A stretch of 64,000 nt of DNA from an uncultured Gammaproteobacteria bacterium (GTDB lineage: Bacteria > Patescibacteriota > Microgenomatia > Levybacterales > UBA12049), in contig CAZNAA010000001.1 of the NCBI GenBank assembly GCA_964571255.1, forward strand, positions 487,674-551,673, in the 5' to 3' direction. The notes beneath the pieces are model-generated. The model ran no database searches. It saw nothing but the letters and a program-made list of their open reading frames with translations, and was not told where the DNA came from. Below are positions 37,903 to 43,370 of the stretch, piece after piece (within the stretch, counting starts at the first letter, position 1; each line of letters opens with the position of its first letter). The position numbers were made by a program, and so were the translations under genes.

Positions 37903-38661
37903 TTAACGATACTTACCTAGTATCGCATTTTTCTTAATAACCAGCAAATCTCTCAGTCCAAAAATAGAATCTTTTACTGGACTTACGCGTCTTGTTTCGA
38001 CATATAGCCACTCCACAGGGACTTCTTTAATTCGATAGCCTTTAATGGAAGCTAAATACAAAAGTTCTACATCAAATCCAGCTGAGACACTGGATCCCTT
38101 CACTGCTTTAAATCCATTATGAAGCTTATGTACCTTTGTAAATAAATCTTTTGCTGCAGCATGCTCAAAAATCTTAAACCCACACTGGGTATCTCTTACT
38201 CCTTTAAGCCCTACAATTATCCCTCGAAGAAGCATATTTGCTCGTGCCATGATGATTCGAAAAATTGGTGATCCTTTTCTTTGATTGTTTCGAGATCCAA
38301 TGACAACTTTATATCCTTTTTCAAAATGAGGAAGTAAGTTATCAATCTCATCAATAGGAGTTGCCTGATCCATGTCAGTAAATAAAATATATTTTCCGTT
38401 TGCCTGAAGTACTCCTGTTGTTACTGCTCCTGCTTTTCCTAAATGAGGATTTTCTACTAGCCTGAACTCCGGATGTTCCCTCATAAACTTTTTAATAAAT
38501 TCGACACTTCCATCTTTTGAACCATCATCCACAACAATTACTTCATAAGAGAATTTTTTGTGCTTGAGGAAGTCATCTACCTTCTCCAAAACTCCCTTTC
38601 GTAGGTTTGCCATTTCTTCGTAACAAGGGATAATTACTGATAAATGAGGATTTTGCGCCAT
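37903..38661 (-). CDS. GT2 glycosyltransferase (GtrB/ArnC/Dpm1-like polyprenyl-phosphate sugar synthase)
   Basis: LSVIIPCYEEMANL...VIVVDDGSKDGS...FTDMDQATP. The true start is the internal ATG (MAQNPHL) at 38661; the track ORF extends to 38724 through a non-Met codon. Confidence 0.8.
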   Translation of the reverse strand: MAQNPHLSVIIPCYEEMANLRKGVLEKVDDFLKHKKFSYEVIVVDDGSKDGSVEFIKKFMREHPEFRLVENPHLGKAGAVTTGVLQANGKYILFTDMDQATPIDEIDNLLPHFEKGYKVVIGSRNNQRKGSPIFRIIMARANMLLRGIIVGLKGVRDTQCGFKIFEHAAAKDLFTKVHKLHNGFKAVKGSSVSAGFDVELLYLASIKGYRIKEVPVEWLYVETRRVSPVKDSIFGLRDLLVIKKNAILGKYR

Positions 38662-38757
38662 ATCTTTAGTATACAAGAAAATTGGGAATTGGTACACAGA
38701 GTATAGCAAATTATAGGACCTCAAACAAGCTTAAAAGTATAATTATTGCGTACATTT

Positions 38758-38766
38758 TGATATAAT
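38758..38766 (+). promoter_or_regulatory. Extended -10 element TGATATAAT, 12 nt upstream of tRNA-Glu
   Basis: Exact TGnTATAAT match. The same 9-mer precedes the start codons of 38948 and 58023. Confidence 0.4.
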
Positions 38767-38778
38767 GATCTCCTATAC

Positions 38779-38850
38779 GGCCCCATCGTCTAGTGGTTAG
38801 GACAGTGGATTCTCATTCCACCAACCGGGATTCGACTTCCCGTGGGGTCA
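38779..38850 (+). tRNA. tRNA-Glu (anticodon CUC)
   Basis: Cloverleaf folded by hand: acceptor GGCCCCA/TGGGGTC, D-stem GTCT/GGAC, anticodon stem GTGGA/TCCAC with loop TTCTCAT (CTC at 38812-38814), T-arm CGGGA-TTCGACT-TCCCG, discriminator A. No encoded CCA. Confidence 0.85.
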
Positions 38851-38932
38851 CAAGAAGCTATGTTTTAGGAATCATCTAACCTTCCCAAAGTTTTGAAGCT
38901 AATTCGGTTCCAACTGTATTTTGGTTTGTTAG

Positions 38933-38941
38933 TGATATAAT
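38933..38941 (+). promoter_or_regulatory. Extended -10 TGATATAAT, 6 nt upstream of ATG (leaderless start)
   Basis: TGATATAAT followed by tcaaat then ATG at 38948; no Shine-Dalgarno. Confidence 0.45.
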
Positions 38942-38947
38942 TCAAAT

Positions 38948-39532
38948 ATGAAACGTATTGTTCTTGTTCATGGTTGGGGAGGCGGACCAAATGGAGATTG
39001 GTTCCCTTGGTTAACAGAAGAACTTCAGAAAACTAACTTAGAGATAATCGCCCCCCAACTACCTGGTACATATAATCCAAGAATTGAGAATTGGGTTCCT
39101 ACTCTTGCTAAGGCAGTTGATGTTCCAGATGAAAATACATTTTTTATAGGGCACAGTATGGGTTGTCAAACAATTGCACGATACCTTGCAACCTTACCAA
39201 AAGATATTAAAATTGGTGGAGTTATATTTGTTGCAGGTTTTTTTGATAGCTTGAACGAAGACGAGTATGATGCTGCAGATAAAGAAACAGCAAAATTATG
39301 GTTAAGGGCTCCACTTGATCTTGAAGTGGTCAAATCTCACATACAGAAAAGTATTTATTATATTTCTGAGGATGATCCAGATGTTCCAATATTAAACAAA
39401 GAGCGTTTTGCAAAGGAACTTAATTCTGAAGTTATAATTCTGAACGGATATAAACACTTTAATGACCCTACGTTGCCTGTAGTTCTTGAAAAGATTCTTG
39501 AACTAACTGATTCTAATTCCTATGGTAGTTAA
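38948..39532 (+). CDS. RBBP9/YdeN-family alpha/beta serine hydrolase
   Basis: VLVHGWGGGP...FFIGHSMGCQ (GxSxG nucleophile elbow); 194 aa, typical of this small hydrolase family. Confidence 0.75.
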   Translation: MKRIVLVHGWGGGPNGDWFPWLTEELQKTNLEIIAPQLPGTYNPRIENWVPTLAKAVDVPDENTFFIGHSMGCQTIARYLATLPKDIKIGGVIFVAGFFDSLNEDEYDAADKETAKLWLRAPLDLEVVKSHIQKSIYYISEDDPDVPILNKERFAKELNSEVIILNGYKHFNDPTLPVVLEKILELTDSNSYGS

Positions 39533-39626
39533 ACATAGAAGCTGATACAGCTTCAGGCTGTAGTATGTGTTGCCACTGTTCCAGCGAACTTCGAATCAGG
39601 TTCCAATTAAAAAACATTTGGGTCAC
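39509..39626 (+). repeat. Imperfect direct repeat copy R1 (overlaps the last 8 codons of the hydrolase gene and extends about 95 bp downstream)
   Basis: GATTCTAATTCCTATGGTAGTTAAAC...GAAGCTG...CCACTGTTCCAGCGAACT...GGTTCCAATTAAAAAACATTTGGGTCAC recurs at 40604 and partially at 41408. Confidence 0.65.
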
Positions 39627-39641
39627 ACGCTCAGAGAGTAC

Positions 39642-40586
39642 TTAGCCTACTCTACAAGGCGCTGGAATATTTGGATCTACCTTCCAAACATCCATATCTC
39701 CTCGATGAAACCTGCAATTATACATATCAAAAGGCAGTCCCATTAAAGTAGCATCAGGGGGAATAATTACATCATCCATTGCGTAAAGAAATGCCCAATA
39801 GGTAGGATCTCTATCAATATAGTTTCTCCAAGGATTCAAGTTGAATTCAATATCACCCTTTGCTACAACTGCTTTTATCTTACCTGCAATTACTTCCTTA
39901 TGAATAGTGTTTCTTCTAATAACGCCTGCCGGAAATTGTTCTCCTACTGATGCCCATTCTCTTTTTTTTCTCAGATATGAATGTGTCTTTTCTGGGGAGT
40001 ACCATGTTGCTGAAGCTAGATGAGCAGCAGATGTCCAAGCCTCTCTTTCAAAAACAGGTGCGTACGGTTGCGGCTTATGTTGTTGGACGAGTTCATGAAT
40101 TTTTGTCACCCACTCTGGTTGCAATCCGTAAAAGACAGAACCTTCAAAAAAACCAAGTTGTGCAATCATCTCAGGAAGCATATCACTGATAAAAGTTGGG
40201 CCAGTGAGAGGATGATAAGCTTTGTTACCGTTATTTAATCCTTCAGCAGTAACTCTCCAATCAACATTTGAGGATACTCCTTTAAGATATGGAGAAAACT
40301 CTTGTCCTAATTCAAATGTTTGATTTTCTACTACTACTCCAGGAACTAACTCTTGAGGTCCTGGTTTTCGATATCGATAAAACTCATTGTAGGATGCAAG
40401 GAGTGTTCGTAAACTTCCTCCAACCTCTTGAGCAGTCACTCCCAGAGCTTCTAATATAGCTCTGTCACGAGCAACTACAACATCAAAAGACTCTCCTTTA
40501 GCAAGGTATTCTCCATTCCCGAACTCTCTATAGGCCTGAGTATAATTATATTCTGATGGATCTACTATTTCATGCCTGTAACTCAT
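39642..40586 (-). CDS. Hypothetical protein (314 aa), atypical composition
   Basis: Long ORF with clearly higher GC and fewer Lys/Ile than neighbours. No family recognised by eye. Bracketed by repeat copies R1 and R2. TATAAT plus 5 nt upstream of the ATG. Confidence 0.6.
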   Translation of the reverse strand: MSYRHEIVDPSEYNYTQAYREFGNGEYLAKGESFDVVVARDRAILEALGVTAQEVGGSLRTLLASYNEFYRYRKPGPQELVPGVVVENQTFELGQEFSPYLKGVSSNVDWRVTAEGLNNGNKAYHPLTGPTFISDMLPEMIAQLGFFEGSVFYGLQPEWVTKIHELVQQHKPQPYAPVFEREAWTSAAHLASATWYSPEKTHSYLRKKREWASVGEQFPAGVIRRNTIHKEVIAGKIKAVVAKGDIEFNLNPWRNYIDRDPTYWAFLYAMDDVIIPPDATLMGLPFDMYNCRFHRGDMDVWKVDPNIPAPCRVG

Positions 40587-40603
40587 TGAGGAATTATAGC
40601 ATT

Positions 40604-40722
40604 GATTTTACTTCCTATTGGTAGTTAAACTAAGAAGCTAAAGTGGTTTCACTTTGAATAATACTTTTCCACTGCTCGAGTGAACTACGTATCTGGTTCC
40701 AATTCGAAAACATTTGGGTCAC
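40604..40722 (+). repeat. Imperfect direct repeat copy R2
   Basis: About 75% identical to R1 over about 118 bp, including the duplicated hydrolase 3'-end codons and the CATTTGGGTCAC tail. Confidence 0.65.
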
Positions 40723-40971
40723 TTAGTCTTATAGTTTGCATTTTTCTCTTCTGAGGCGTATAATCTTCTTAGTTTTAGGCTTGAACTGTTTCTAATTGCA
40801 GAAGTTTAGTAGAACCTAAAATAGTTTAATTCTCTTGCACATTAATAGTTGTGGAAATAAGCCTGCTTTTTCTGAAGCCAGTAGATAGGGAAAGAACTAC
40901 TTCTTTTTCTGTTTACTCGCTTCAGAACCTACCGGGGAGTCTCGGTTAGCAAAGAAGCGGAGGAGGAAAGA

Positions 40972-41331
40972 ATGGAACTAGCAGCGTTGCTCCAAGAGCT
41001 CTTTGGAGCAGAAAACGGGATTACCATTAATCCCGAGCAAATTCCAACACACGACCAGGTGATTGCTACGGTAGGACATATGCAACTCGTTGCTTGGAGG
41101 ATTTATATTATCGTGACCCCAAAGGACACACATAGGATACGCTTCCATGTCAAGGGGAAGCGAGGATATAAGCCCACCCCGTCCCAGATTAAGCGAGCGT
41201 TGAGTGGGTTAACGCTTGTGGCAAGGAAGGGAGAGGATGAGCCAATACCACTTAACTGGAGTCCTATCACCGGGTGGTATGAGGGAAACTTGCCGGAAGG
41301 GCAAGTAACAATCATGCCAGTAATTCCATAA
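40972..41331 (+). CDS. Hypothetical protein (119 aa), GC-rich relative to the window
   Basis: About 50% GC ORF in a 33% GC window. Strong GGAGGAGG Shine-Dalgarno 6 nt upstream, unlike the leaderless native genes. Followed by a GC-rich imperfect hairpin at 41357-41388. No recognisable family. Confidence 0.5.
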   Translation: MELAALLQELFGAENGITINPEQIPTHDQVIATVGHMQLVAWRIYIIVTPKDTHRIRFHVKGKRGYKPTPSQIKRALSGLTLVARKGEDEPIPLNWSPITGWYEGNLPEGQVTIMPVIP

Positions 41332-41407
41332 TCAAGCAAGAGAAAGGTGATCCCCGGCATCGCGCTGGGGGTCACCTGACTCTCAATTTCACAATTAGTT
41401 CATCTAT

Positions 41408-41482
41408 GATTCTAATTCTTATTGGTATTTGAAATGGGAAGCTGTACTGAGTTCAGGATTAACTACTTGTTCCACTGCTCAG
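41408..41482 (+). repeat. Truncated, more diverged third repeat copy R3
   Basis: GATTCTAATTCTTATTGGTATTTGAAATGGGAAGCTGTACTGAGTTCAGG...GTTCCACTGCTCAG aligns with the first about 75 bp of R1/R2 and lacks the 3' tail. Confidence 0.45.
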
Positions 41483-41761
41483 ATTTATCTTCATCCTATA
41501 TAGTTCATTAGATAGAGGAATCTTCAGTAAAGATTTTTTCGTTTGGGGAACATGGTCTGCACCAAAATATGCTTGAAGTTCCTGATAGCTATTATTTTCG
41601 TTAGCCAACTGTGCACTAGAACATTTCTTTGTTCAGTAGTATGCTCACTTGCAATTGGTCCTCCTTCCCTTGCGGCATCATCTACCTGTAATACTAATGG
41701 CTCAACTTCTGCTTTTACAACTTGATCAGGATAATTCTGTACAAAGACCAACTCTAGATGA

Positions 41762-42229
41762 TATGGTAGTACTATAAAATTCCTTCTTATAAGTTTTATT
41801 TTTATTCTCTTTTTTCCATCTCATGTAAAAGCCGAGGGAATTTATACTACTGATAAACTCATTACCGTAGATATTGGTTCTCAGACTCTTACCGCTTGGG
41901 AAGGAGGAAAAGTTCAACATACAACAAAAGTATCTACTGGAATGTATCTGACTCCCACTGTAAAAGGAGGATTTAAGATTAAAACAAAGCTTCTAAAACA
42001 AGATATGAAGGGACCTTCTCCTTACAAAGCGTATCATCCTAACGGAAAGTATTATATAAAAGACGTTCCTCACGTTATGTATTTTTACCAAGCCTATGCT
42101 TTCCACGGAGCATACTGGCATAACAATTTTGGATCACGCGCAAGTCATGGATGTGTTAACCTTCCTCTCACCTCTGCTGAGTGGTTATATAACTGGGCAC
42201 AAGTAGGGACTCGAGTAGAAATCTTCTAA
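41762..42229 (+). CDS. L,D-transpeptidase (YkuD domain) with signal peptide; start codon out of frame (possible frameshift or pseudogene)
   Basis: In-frame translation upstream of the track ORF (41942) gives the signal-peptide-like KFLLISFIFILFFPSHVKA, then ITVDIGSQTLTAWEGGKVQHTTKVSTGM. Downstream is the catalytic motif HGAYWHNNFGSRASHGCVNL. The only upstream ATG (41758) is offset by one nucleotide from this frame. Confidence 0.6.
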   Translation, partial: YGSTIKFLLISFIFILFFPSHVKAEGIYTTDKLITVDIGSQTLTAWEGGKVQHTTKVSTGMYLTPTVKGGFKIKTKLLKQDMKGPSPYKAYHPNGKYYIKDVPHVMYFYQAYAFHGAYWHNNFGSRASHGCVNLPLTSAEWLYNWAQVGTRVEIF

Positions 42230-42251
42230 TACCTATTCTGTATATCTAGTC

Positions 42252-43370
42252 TCACTTTTGCTTAATTCGTTGAGCAAGTAGTTCATAGACTGAGTCGATT
42301 CCTAAATCAGTTTTGACTGAAATAAAGAGTGGTTCATGTTCTCCGTATTTCTCTAAGACTTTTTCTCTATCTAACTTAGATGCTCTATCCACTTTATTAA
42401 AGATATAAATAGAATCGGTAATATCTCTTCCTAAGTCTTTTAAGATATCATTCACCACATCAATTTTAAACTCATATTCTGGATCTGAAATATCAATAAC
42501 ATGAAGAAGAATATCTGCATGAATTGACTCCATAAGTGTTGATCTAAAAGCTCCGATAAGACGAGGTGGTAAGTTTCGAATGAATCCAATGGTATCTGTT
42601 AACAATACTTCCTGTTCAATTTGTGGCAGATAAAACTTCCCAACGGTACTATCAAGGGTTGCAAAAAGAGCATTTTCAACCAGTACATCCTTTTTGGTTA
42701 GTTTATTAAACAAAGAGCTCTTCCCAGCATTGGTATAGCCAACAATGGATACTGTTTTTAAGCCAGATCTTCTCCTGGCATCTACTTGATCCTCTTTACT
42801 CTTCGCAATTTTTTCTAACTTATCATTGACACTTTTTATCTCGTCTCTCCAGTGCCGTTTCATAAGCTCTGTATTTGTTTCTCCTACTCCCAAGGTCCCA
42901 ATTCCCCCTCCTTGTCGAGACAATACAAATCCCATGCCATAAATTCGAGGTCCCATATACCTCATTCGGGCGAGTTGAATTTGCAATTTTGATTCAGTGG
43001 TTACAGCATGCTTATCAAAAATTTGTAAGATCAAATCAACCCTATCCCATACTTCAATAGCAGGATTCGCTTTTTGAAAAGCTGTTTTAAGAGCATGAAT
43101 TTGACGAGGTTTTGCAATAGCATTAAGTACTACCACATCAACGTGAATCTCCTTCATCCGTTGAAGAACCATCTCAACCTTTCCTCTCCCAATATAGGTT
43201 CCGTTATGAGGGTTATCAAGTTTTTGGATGACTCGATCAACAATCACACCACCTAAGGTAGTGATGAGAGATTCTAACTCTTCTCCCACATGAATTGAGC
43301 GCTCTGTATTCGCTTGTGGGTTGATCACATGAATAGGGAGTACTTTAATCGTTTTCTTAACGTCTAGCAT
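42252..43370 (-). CDS. hflX: GTPase HflX
   Basis: HflX N-domain followed by G-domain G1 VSIVGYTNAGKSSLFN, G3 DTIGF, G4 NKVD. TGGTATAAT plus 6 nt before the ATG. Confidence 0.85.
   Translation of the reverse strand: MLDVKKTIKVLPIHVINPQANTERSIHVGEELESLITTLGGVIVDRVIQKLDNPHNGTYIGRGKVEMVLQRMKEIHVDVVVLNAIAKPRQIHALKTAFQKANPAIEVWDRVDLILQIFDKHAVTTESKLQIQLARMRYMGPRIYGMGFVLSRQGGGIGTLGVGETNTELMKRHWRDEIKSVNDKLEKIAKSKEDQVDARRRSGLKTVSIVGYTNAGKSSLFNKLTKKDVLVENALFATLDSTVGKFYLPQIEQEVLLTDTIGFIRNLPPRLIGAFRSTLMESIHADILLHVIDISDPEYEFKIDVVNDILKDLGRDITDSIYIFNKVDRASKLDREKVLEKYGEHEPLFISVKTDLGIDSVYELLAQRIKQK

What the first reader, a model, noticed from the sequence alone, without database searches (positions are those of the whole stretch)
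39509..41482. Three-copy imperfect direct repeat duplicating the 3' end of the hydrolase gene and bracketing two orphan, GC-atypical single-gene units (cassette-like array or tandem site-specific insertions)
An approximately 118 bp element recurs at 39509-39626 (R1), 40604-40722 (R2) and, truncated and more diverged, 41408-41482 (R3). R1 begins with the last 8 codons and stop of the alpha/beta-hydrolase gene (GATTCTAATTCCTATGGTAGTTAA). Every copy carries this gene-end segment, so the repeat was generated from the hydrolase 3' end. Between R1 and R2 lies one minus-strand gene (314 aa, about 44% GC). Between R2 and R3 lies one plus-strand gene (119 aa, about 50% GC, strong GGAGG Shine-Dalgarno unlike native leaderless genes). 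The host background is about 33% GC. This is the footprint of serial integration of small elements at an attB overlapping a gene 3' end, with each event regenerating the gene end and pushing older att copies downstream. An alternative reading is an integron-like cassette array. No integrase is visible in the window. A tRNA-Glu gene lies 660 bp upstream.
Basis: seen in the sequence. Interest (0 to 1): 0.7.

Follow-up and report, generated by a model that had tools for sequence, protein, structure and literature searches.

The report
Recombinase-site repeats bracketing acquired single genes
The three repeats are real, but they are not copies of the hydrolase gene's end: they belong to a ~120-bp family, found next to tRNA-Glu in several ultra-small (Patescibacteria) bacteria, that separates independently acquired single genes and carries, on the opposite strand, the last codons of a serine-integrase gene.

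Summary
Observation confirmed. R1 is 39508-39626, R2 is 40603-40722 (75% identical), and R3 is 41407-41482 (truncated). They bracket a 314-aa gene and a 119-aa orphan gene.

The repeat (R) is not derived from the hydrolase. R occurs in at least 10 other metagenomic or genomic loci that lack this hydrolase. Copies there are again clustered, co-oriented, and separate single unrelated genes (PF00144 beta-lactamase family, GNAT, alpha/beta-hydrolase, AHSA1, unknowns). In 4 of 5 loci with enough flank, R lies within about 3 kb of a tRNA-Glu gene and in the tRNA's orientation.

On the minus strand R encodes a conserved peptide (VTQMFLNWNQIRSSLEQWKQVLQPE...) with pN/pS 0.23. The first 27 nt and the last ~22 nt are conserved as DNA. 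In two loci the peptide is the in-frame C-terminal tail of a large-serine-recombinase fragment. In a third locus an LSR gene sits directly upstream of a two-copy array.

R has no attC-like fold or covariation, and I found no recombinase in the parts of the window tested.

Best reading: R is an att-site module overlapping an integrase 3' end, and the window holds an integrase-less cassette-like array in a tRNA-Glu-linked hotspot. This is a new variant of a known kind. The mechanism is inferred, not shown.

The parts
38779..38851 (+). tRNA-Glu(ctc), the anchor of the variable region
   Evidence: ARAGORN and Rfam tRNA at 57 bits. A tRNA-Glu lies within ~0.5-3 kb of R copies, and in the same orientation as R(+), in the window, L043, L050 and L052.
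38948..39532 (+). Serine hydrolase (PF06821). Its last 8 codons plus stop lie inside R1. Probably native, possibly the first unit.
   Evidence: Pfam E=1.7e-20. Homologues at 36-50% identity end at the residue where R starts. In L015 and L016 the homologue also sits directly 3' of tRNA genes.
39508..39626 (+). R1, a full copy of the R element
   Evidence: nhmmer E=7e-33.
39513..39626 (-). R*1 open frame: VTQMFFNWNLIRSSLEQWQHILQPEAVSASMFNYHRN* (recombinase-tail peptide)
   Evidence: Related peptides.
39642..40586 (-). Gene A, 314 aa, unknown function and fold (unit 1 cargo)
40593..40601 (-). TGCTATAAT extended -10-like box, 6 nt before the gene A ATG
   Evidence: Read from the sequence. TGATATAAT, TGGTATAAT and TGCTATAAT occupy the same position after R* in L043, L046 and L011. 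The scan, which requires a -35 hexamer, did not list it. Its function is inferred.
40603..40722 (+). R2, a full copy of the R element
   Evidence: nhmmer E=8e-32.
40630..40722 (-). R*2 open frame: VTQMFSNWNQIRSSLEQWKSIIQSETTLAS*
40972..41331 (+). Gene B, 119-aa orphan, 48.9% GC, GGAGGAGG at 40959-40966 (unit 2 cargo)
   Evidence: Only itself in 5.8e9 proteins. No family hits. AF2 pLDDT 54, unusable. GC.
41407..41482 (+). R3, truncated and frameshifted; lacks the right (27-nt) block
   Evidence: The extension test was negative.

Best explanation
R is the attachment-site module of a family of integrative units driven by a large serine recombinase (LSR). These units accumulate in a variable region 3' of tRNA-Glu in Patescibacteria.

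Read on the minus strand (R*), the module has three parts: (i) a 27-nt block invariant as DNA, GTGACCCAAATGTTTTTGAATTGGAAC, an imperfect palindrome whose outer 9-10 nt resemble the reverse complement of the tRNA-Glu 3' end; (ii) about 25 codons conserved as protein; and (iii) a DNA-conserved end, ACTACCA...ATTAGAATC.

The coding part is the C-terminal tail of the recombinase. The site therefore lies in or at the 3' end of the recombinase gene, and every unit that recombines there must carry a usable tail. That would explain the purifying selection on solitary copies.

In the window, three R copies delimit two one-gene units (gene A and gene B) downstream of tRNA-Glu and the hydrolase, and no recombinase was found nearby. 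This would be an orphan, partly decayed array.

Shown: the repeat family, its clustering and co-orientation, the tRNA-Glu linkage, the coding signature, and the linkage to LSR genes in three loci. Inferred: that R is the recombination site, where the crossover lies, and whether units move as integrase-less cassettes or are decayed full elements.
For: 1. Family and arrays. R copies with E between 1e-11 and 1e-33 occur in L011 (4 junctions), L043 (3), L050 (2), L040 (2-3), L044, L046, L049, L052 and L041. All copies in a locus are co-oriented. Each interval holds one gene, in either orientation: PF00144 beta-lactamase family, PF13302 GNAT, PF12146 hydrolase, AHSA1, and unknowns.

2. Shared cargo. 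The gene A homologue in L011 (59% identical) is again followed 15 nt later by R*. Four other homologues sit in unrelated contexts; no R was found in the two whose DNA was read (L013, L014).

3. Coding signature. Differences by codon position are 98:62:191, with Arg CGA/CGT/AGA/CGG, Ser TCN and Leu CTN/TTG switches. pN/pS is 0.23 in one frame and 0.40-1.9 in the other five.

4. DNA-level ends. Third-position deviations are 4/90 in codons 1-9 against 64/170 in codons 10-26. The 3' block is read in different frames in different copies.

5. Recombinase link. In L050, a Resolvase piece plus a Zn_ribbon_recom piece (phrog_95 positions 88-311 at E=5e-38 and 348-450 at E=6e-7) lie directly upstream of the array and co-oriented with it. 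The L049 ORF matches phrog_95 positions 429-574 (E=1e-4) and runs in frame into R*. Its 50%-identical homologue in L040 does the same from codon 809 onward, with one in-frame stop further upstream.

6. tRNA-Glu lies within 0.5-3 kb, in the same relative orientation, in 4 of 5 loci with flank. R ends in TTTGGGTCAC; the tRNAs end in TTGGGGTCAC.

7. An exhaustive HMMER search finds the peptide almost only in 31-96-aa mini-ORFs. The single longer true hit is the LSR fragment.
Against: No recombinase was found in the window. A tblastn with the L050 LSR found nothing, and ten downstream ORFs are unrelated. The ORFs upstream of 35 kb were not scanned by Pfam.

Only 3 of about 11 loci show a recombinase next to R, and all three recombinase genes are broken or truncated. 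No intact LSR ending in the R* tail was found among 1.84e9 representatives.

In L050 the LSR ORF stops 165 nt before R*.

Sequence to the left of GTGACCC is not conserved between copies, so a classical two-arm LSR attP cannot be shown.

Similarity of R to tRNA-Glu is short and only modestly significant (p~0.015 for the 12-mer, p~0.13-0.24 for the 3' end).

The decay gradient along arrays is inconsistent: R3, distal to the tRNA, is the most decayed in the window, whereas in L043 the tRNA-proximal copy is the truncated one.

The rest of the source genome (772,860-bp contig) could not be scanned for dispersed copies.
Confidence: 0.55

Rival explanations
1. attB overlaps the hydrolase 3' end, and each insertion regenerates the hydrolase end, so R derives from the hydrolase.
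For: R1 does supply the last 8 codons and the stop of the hydrolase, and all three copies carry that segment. The array starts exactly at the hydrolase end.
Against: R occurs in at least 10 loci without this hydrolase. In L044 an unrelated ORF also ends in R. Hydrolase homologues lack the tail. In the plus-strand frames pN/pS is 0.40-1.9 and several copies carry stop codons, while one minus-strand frame gives 0.23.
Confidence: 0.03
2. An integron-type array: R is an attC site, and the locus is a CALIN (attC cluster lacking an integrase) recombined by a tyrosine IntI through folded single strands.
For: The repeats are ~120 bp, co-oriented, and separate one gene each. The cargo resembles integron cargo (beta-lactamase family, GNAT, a weak ANT(2'')-like hit).
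Against: Neither strand gives a significant or shared fold (z from -1.7 to +0.75). The consensus structure is only -3.5 and -5.5 kcal/mol, no helix pairs the two ends of R, and covariation is negligible (0 and 2 compensated pairs, covariation terms +0.44 and +0.02). No R''/R' complementary core pair is present. The linked recombinase is a serine recombinase, not IntI. Units carry their own -10 boxes and lie in both orientations. R is protein-coding.
Confidence: 0.04
3. R is a stand-alone micro-gene of 31-37 aa (for example a recombination directionality factor or a regulator) that has been duplicated. The array is just a small gene family interspersed with other genes.
For: There is strong purifying selection. 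PGAP and JGI call some copies as 31-34-aa genes (P0018, P0019). L011b carries an in-frame 33-nt insertion. In L043 the GTG overlaps the upstream stop codon (GTGA), as in translationally coupled genes.
Against: No promoter or ribosome-binding site is conserved upstream, because homology starts exactly at GTG. The first 27 nt and the post-stop block are conserved as DNA. Short variants that lack the coding part still sit at junctions (L011 D1 copies). The peptide is fused in frame to LSR fragments in L049 and L040.
Confidence: 0.15
4. R is a dispersed MITE-, REP- or Correia-like intergenic element unrelated to gene acquisition.
For: It is short, intergenic, and present in several copies per genome. 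Stop codons occur in all frames at its left end, and a promoter-like box lies next to it.
Against: All 6 copies found in 104 kb from three genomes lie within ~3 kb of a tRNA-Glu, in consecutive intergenic gaps and co-oriented. R has no terminal inverted repeats. It carries a coding signature.
Confidence: 0.05
5. Ordinary tRNA-linked island. Each unit was once a complete integrase-carrying element inserted in series. Integrase genes were later deleted, and R is simply what remains of each integrase 3' end plus att.
For: Broken integrases lie next to R (L050, L049, L040). Some copies are decayed (R3, L011d, L043c2). Tycheposon islands show exactly such remnants (paper 10.1101/2020.12.28.424599).
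Against: It requires many independent deletions that all end precisely at GTGACCC, each leaving a single intact gene tightly abutting the next R (15 nt for gene A; an overlapping stop codon in L043).
Confidence: 0.18

Closest known systems
tRNA-linked genomic islands built by repeated integration (for example Prochlorococcus tycheposons)
   Same: Both form a variable region next to a tRNA gene. Units are stacked in series and separated by direct att repeats. Fragmented integrases and decayed repeats are present. A minority of tycheposons use large serine recombinases.
   Different: Here the repeat is ~120 bp, not a plain partial tRNA. It encodes a selected peptide on the other strand. Units are single ~1-kb genes without replication or integration genes. 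The host lineage is Patescibacteria.
SCC / pseudo-SCC composite islands at rlmH (orfX) in staphylococci (from my own knowledge, not tested here)
   Same: LSRs (CcrAB/C) drive insertion. Tandem elements are bounded by direct repeats that duplicate a gene's 3' end. Integrase-less elements are mobilised in trans.
   Different: In SCC the duplicated end belongs to a host housekeeping gene and is ~15-20 bp, and the elements are 10-60 kb. Here the duplicated end is that of the recombinase itself, and the units are one gene.
Integron cassette arrays and CALINs
   Same: Both have one gene per unit, co-oriented ~60-140-bp sites between units, resistance-like cargo, and arrays that can lack an integrase.
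   Different: R has no attC hairpin and no covariation. The recombinase is a serine, not a tyrosine, recombinase. The site lies at the integrase 3' end rather than at an attI upstream of it. Cassettes carry their own promoters and lie in both orientations.
SSV-type archaeal integrases whose attP lies inside the int gene (from my own knowledge, not tested here)
   Same: The att site is embedded in the integrase ORF, so integration separates the integrase body from its C-terminal part. Integrase fragments border integrated DNA next to tRNA genes.
   Different: SSV integrases are tyrosine recombinases, and their att is a true tRNA segment. Here only ~35 codons are split off, and the enzyme is an LSR.

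Membership tests
Integron / CALIN | attC site: an imperfect palindrome whose two ends (R''/L'' and L'/R') pair in a folded single strand | tested here: not met
   Single-copy folds have z from -1.7 to +0.75 and no shared structure. RNAalifold on 8 copies, both strands, gives -3.5 and -5.5 kcal/mol with no helix joining the ends and negligible covariation.
Integron / CALIN | An IntI tyrosine recombinase with adjacent attI and Pc promoter (for a complete integron) | tested here: not met
   No recombinase was found in the window regions tested. The recombinase linked to R elsewhere is Resolvase + Zn_ribbon_recom.
Integron / CALIN | Detection by the IntegronFinder attC covariance model | not testable with these tools
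   That model is not in Rfam. The Rfam E-value scan of 38500-42500 found only the tRNA above its gathering score.
tRNA-linked integrative island | Located immediately 3' of a tRNA gene, with repeats in the tRNA's orientation | tested here: met
   tRNA-Glu lies 0.5-3 kb from R, in the same relative orientation, in the window, L043, L050 and L052. No tRNA was seen in the 11.8 kb of L011.
tRNA-linked integrative island | The direct repeats are copies of the tRNA 3' part | tested here: inconclusive
   Only the last 9-10 nt (TTTGGGTCAC vs TTGGGGTCAC) and a 12-mer (GATTCTAATTCC vs anticodon arm GATTCTCATTCC) match. Shuffle p is ~0.13-0.24 and ~0.015 respectively.
tRNA-linked integrative island | Gene content between repeats differs between related genomes (an empty or alternative site) | tested here: inconclusive
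   No close relative of the source genome was available; the best hydrolase homologue is 50% identical. Across distant loci the cargo differs completely. The gene A family occurs in five other contexts.
Large-serine-recombinase att site | An LSR gene (Resolvase + Recombinase/Zn-ribbon domains) adjacent to the site | tested here: met
   Met in L050, and in L049 and L040 as fragments. Not met in the window itself.
Large-serine-recombinase att site | A ~40-50-bp site with dyad symmetry around a central dinucleotide, recombined by the enzyme | not testable with these tools
   The 27-nt block is an imperfect palindrome (GGTGACCCAAAT / AATTGGAACC, read from the sequence). Binding and crossover need experiments.
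MITE / REP-type dispersed repeat | Many copies scattered in intergenic regions genome-wide, usually with terminal inverted repeats | tested here: not met
   No other copy exists in the 64-kb window or in the 20-kb loci outside the tRNA-Glu cluster. No TIRs. The whole source genome was not available.

The most novel reading that the evidence does not exclude
Patescibacteria carry an integron-like gene-capture platform run by a large serine recombinase instead of IntI. One-gene cassettes, each carrying a ~120-bp site, insert at the 3' end of the recombinase gene next to tRNA-Glu. Because the site overlaps the last ~35 codons of the recombinase, each cassette must bring a working replacement tail, which keeps a protein-coding signature on every site copy.
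Probability: 0.25. Interest if true: 0.85.

Novelty: new variant of a known kind. Interest (0 to 1): 0.6.

Why it matters
Patescibacteria (CPR) have tiny genomes, and little is known about how they acquire genes. A recognisable ~120-bp junction element, tied to tRNA-Glu and to serine recombinases, that separates single accessory genes gives a concrete and searchable marker for horizontally acquired genes in this lineage. The cargo includes beta-lactamase-family, GNAT and hydrolase genes, and proteins with almost no relatives in 5.8 billion sequences.

If the units move as integrase-less cassettes, this would be a second, mechanistically independent solution to the integron problem. The overlap of a recombination site with the recombinase's own C-terminal codons would be an unusual case of dual coding. 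It also suggests a testable link between integration state and recombinase structure.

Tried and rejected
- **RNA families.** The Rfam scan of the region found only the tRNA.
- **attC-like or RNA structure.** Rejected.
- **Empty site in relatives.** The genome-contig scan with the hydrolase reached only 50% identity, and the source genome is absent from that collection.
- **Viral contigs.** Three scans found chance matches or nothing: the R 18-mer, the peptide profile, and the LSR-tail profile.
- **Parent protein for the peptide.** The word-index search gave 3 mini-ORFs. The exhaustive HMMER search gave 19 hits, of which one is the LSR fragment.
- **P0020 annotation.** Pfam, NCBIfam, PDB, phage and plasmid tblastn searches gave nothing. 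Only PHROG 95 matched.
- **An apparent window homologue of the LSR tail.** The hit at 874-1089 is a methyltransferase, so it is a chance match.
- **R3 extension to 41560.** Not supported (p=0.3-0.6).
- **Solitary site between tRNA-Glu and the hydrolase.** p=0.03-0.24 with gaps, and not supported without gaps.
- **Gene B.** The model was too poor to search (pLDDT 54). The afdb50 library was unavailable.
- **DGR template/variable repeat.** Considered and rejected: mismatches are not adenine-specific and no reverse transcriptase is present (my inference).
Full report
**1. The observation**

The region was read directly. The repeat finder reports a 104-nt pair at 39523-39626 and 40619-40722 (75% identical) and a three-member 16-nt family at 39508, 40603 and 41407. 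A MAFFT alignment shows R1 and R2 aligned over ~118 nt. R3 shares the first ~75 nt and then diverges.

The two best-conserved blocks occur nowhere else in the 64-kb window, against 0 expected in shuffles.
- a PF06821 serine hydrolase at 38948-39532, whose last 8 codons and stop lie in R1;
- a 314-aa minus-strand ORF at 39642-40586 (gene A);
- a 119-aa plus-strand ORF at 40972-41331 (gene B) with GGAGGAGG six bases upstream;
- tRNA-Glu(ctc) at 38779-38851.

GC is 35.8% for the window, 39.7% for gene A and 48.9% for gene B. Only gene B is clearly atypical.

**2. The two cargo genes**

Gene B has no relative at all, and its model is too poor to search. Both genes behave as rare, horizontally moving genes.

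**3. R is a family, not a local duplication of the hydrolase end**

A BLASTN of R against the fetched loci hit L011, the contig carrying the 59%-identical gene A homologue. Reading L011 showed a full R in reverse-complement orientation 15 nt after that homologue. A second full copy follows an unrelated alpha/beta hydrolase. Two short variants (81 nt, 94% identical to each other) lie directly upstream of those two genes.

One metagenome scan with a 23-nt pattern from R gave seven loci, and a profile HMM confirmed six of them. Further copies came from the contigs of peptide hits.

Copies are clustered and co-oriented, with one gene per interval:
- L043 has R(partial) | PF00144 beta-lactamase-family gene | R | PF13302 GNAT | R.
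- L050 has R | 351-aa gene | R.
- L040 has two or three copies around an AHSA1-family gene.

In L044 an unrelated 261-aa ORF ends ...GKDSNS* inside R. Hydrolase homologues from other Patescibacteria end where R begins. The hydrolase therefore reads into R, and R was not made from the hydrolase.

**4. R is protein-coding on the other strand**

Translating the reverse complement (R*) of every copy gives VTQMF(L/F/S)NWNxIRSSLEQW(K/Q)xx(L/I)Q(P/S)E...NYH*.
- Differences between copies fall 98:62:191 on codon positions 1:2:3. Synonymous switches include Arg CGA/CGT/AGA/CGG, Ser TCG/TCA/TCC/TCT and Leu CTG/CTC/CTA/TTG.
- pN/pS is 0.23 in this frame and 0.40-1.9 in the other five.
- L011b carries an in-frame 33-nt insertion. 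R3, L011d and L043c2 are frameshifted.

The ends of R are constrained as DNA. Third-position deviations are 4/90 in codons 1-9 (GTGACCCAAATGTTTTTGAATTGGAAC) against 64/170 in codons 10-26. The terminal block ACTACCA...ATTAGAATC is conserved although it is read as NYH* in some copies and TTxGY* in others, and although part of it lies beyond the stop codon.

**5. The peptide belongs to a serine recombinase**

A word-index search and an exhaustive HMMER search of 1.84 billion representatives find the peptide almost only in 31-96-aa mini-ORFs.

The exception is P0020 (166 aa; contig L049). Its extended ORF matches PHROG 95 ("integrase") at profile positions 429-574 (E=1e-4) and runs in frame into R*. 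L040 holds a 50%-identical homologue, also in frame with R*.

PHROG 95 is the large-serine-recombinase family. The L050 gene pieces that Pfam labels Resolvase and Zn_ribbon_recom match it at positions 88-311 (E=5e-38) and 348-450 (E=6e-7). In L050 that LSR, which is frameshifted, lies directly upstream of the two-copy array and is co-oriented with R*. The 168 nt between its stop and R* is about the length expected for the missing part of the profile; that is my inference.

R* is thus the 3' tail of an LSR gene in three independent loci. No intact LSR with this tail was found.

**6. Linkage to tRNA-Glu**

ARAGORN on the loci with enough flank finds a tRNA-Glu 0.5-3 kb from the R copies in the window, L043, L050 and L052. 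In each case the tRNA is on the left side of R(+) and in the same orientation. L011 (11.8 kb) shows no tRNA. With one or two tRNA-Glu genes per ~1-Mb genome, this is very unlikely by chance (rough estimate, inference).

R ends in TTTGGGTCAC and the tRNAs end in TTGGGGTCAC. The left end of R, GATTCTAATTCC, resembles the anticodon arm GATTCTCATTCC. By shuffling these matches are only modestly significant, so I treat them as suggestive.

**7. What R is not**

- **Not attC-like.** There are no significant folds, the consensus structure is weak, no helix joins the ends of R, and covariation is negligible on either strand.
- **Not a known RNA.** Only the tRNA passes in the Rfam scan.
- **Not visibly dispersed.** All six copies in 104 kb from three genomes lie near tRNA-Glu.
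- **No recombinase found in the window.** A tblastn with the L050 LSR found nothing, and ten downstream ORFs are ordinary genes. The upstream 35 kb is one long minus-strand gene block that I did not scan by Pfam.

**8. Mechanism (inferred)**

The simplest account is that R is an att module whose crossover region is the invariant imperfect palindrome at the start of R*, and that this region lies inside or at the 3' end of the recombinase gene. Recombination there separates the recombinase body from its last ~35 codons. Any unit that inserts must then bring a usable tail, which would explain why solitary copies keep a coding signature.

Homology between copies starts exactly at GTGACCC, as expected if everything to its left comes from the recombination partner. 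L043 fits a simple site-by-site insertion scheme: a solitary right block nearest the tRNA (21/28 matches, p<0.002), followed by two [gene + R] units. The window fits less neatly, because R3 lacks the right block and no solitary site near the tRNA could be shown.

The data do not decide whether the ~1-kb units are integrase-less cassettes mobilised in trans or the stumps of full elements.

After R* many units carry TGnTATAAT 6-8 nt before the ATG. Examples are gene A at 40593-40601, and equivalent positions in L043, L046 and L011. This suggests each unit brings its own promoter (read from sequence, not tested).

**9. Comparison and verdict**

The closest described systems are tRNA-linked islands built by repeated integration, such as tycheposons. 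Those also show stacked elements, partial-tRNA repeats, fragmented integrases and a minority of LSRs.

From my own knowledge, other parallels are:
- SCC and pseudo-SCC arrays, for LSR use and for duplication of a gene end;
- SSV-type integrases, for an att site inside the integrase gene;
- integrons, for the one-gene-per-site architecture.

R fails the defining attC test, so it is not an integron, though it may work like one. I rate this a new variant of a known kind.

Noticed in passing
window 40797-40829: Logan contigs from three samples (SRR8893622/23/24) all end at 40796. Contigs with gene B from SRR8893621/23/24 all start at ~40828-40830. This lies between R2 and the GC-rich gene B segment. 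It may reflect strain heterogeneity at the edge of the gene B unit.
   Followed up: no
window 41726-42229: The YkuD (L,D-transpeptidase) frame is open from 41762 (after the in-frame TGA at 41759-41761) and encodes a signal-peptide-like start, but has no ATG, GTG or TTG before 41942. An 18-mer at 41753-41770 is 78% identical to the left block of R, which is chance level. The island edge may have removed the YkuD start codon.
   Followed up: partly
window 41346-41376: A GC-rich hairpin after gene B (GGTGATCCCCGGCATCGCGCTGGGGGTCACC) contains GGGGTCAC, the same 8-mer as the tRNA-Glu 3' end. It lies ~30 nt before R3, which lacks its own GGGTCAC block. This could be coincidence.
   Followed up: no
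window 41524-41751 (-): A 75-aa ORF lies between R3 and YkuD, co-oriented with R*. It ends ...LVQTMFPKRKNLY, and VQTMF loosely recalls VTQMF. It has no family hits. It may be the remnant of a further unit or of a recombinase, but this was not supported by tblastn.
   Followed up: partly
L011 5243-5323 and 8378-8458: Two 81-nt copies, 94% identical, lie directly upstream of the gene A homologue and of an alpha/beta hydrolase. They begin TGACCCAT and end ...AATCAGTGCTATAAT. They look like short, non-coding R variants that supply a -10 box. The gene before them is weakly ANT(2'')-like (E=3e-4).
   Followed up: partly
L046 1-260: By my reading of the translation (not tested), a frameshifted fragment resembling the N-terminus of a type I restriction-modification methylase (YVEQTSWILFLKYLDDLE...) is cut off exactly at the start of an R* copy. 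It is followed by TGGTATAAT and a Ser/Thr kinase gene.
   Followed up: no
L015 9820-10567; L016 9837-10549: The closest hydrolase homologues (49-50% identical) also sit about 30-90 nt downstream of tRNA genes (Arg and Ala). The tRNA-then-hydrolase adjacency may therefore be ancestral, and the hydrolase native rather than cargo.
   Followed up: partly
contig of P0009 (SRR14005100, 7.5 kb, no DNA available): An R* mini-ORF lies next to a YkuD gene and a Lon gene, as in the window, but R* is in the opposite orientation relative to them. A related organism seems to have its R region at the same chromosomal neighbourhood.
   Followed up: no
L050 11972-13415 and 17140-17448: A PIN-domain gene and a small upstream gene (a likely toxin-antitoxin pair; only the PIN domain was annotated) lie between the R array and tRNA-Glu. 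A GIY-YIG gene lies on the far side of the tRNA, overlapping its end. An IS200-like Y1 transposase gene lies 4 kb further on.
   Followed up: no
window 1900-38700: About 30 consecutive minus-strand ORFs form one long block. It includes GT2 and probably other glycosyltransferase-like membrane proteins, and ends at tRNA-Glu. Apart from the GT2 at 37903-38724 and three ORFs near the window start (430-2881), it was not annotated here.
   Followed up: no
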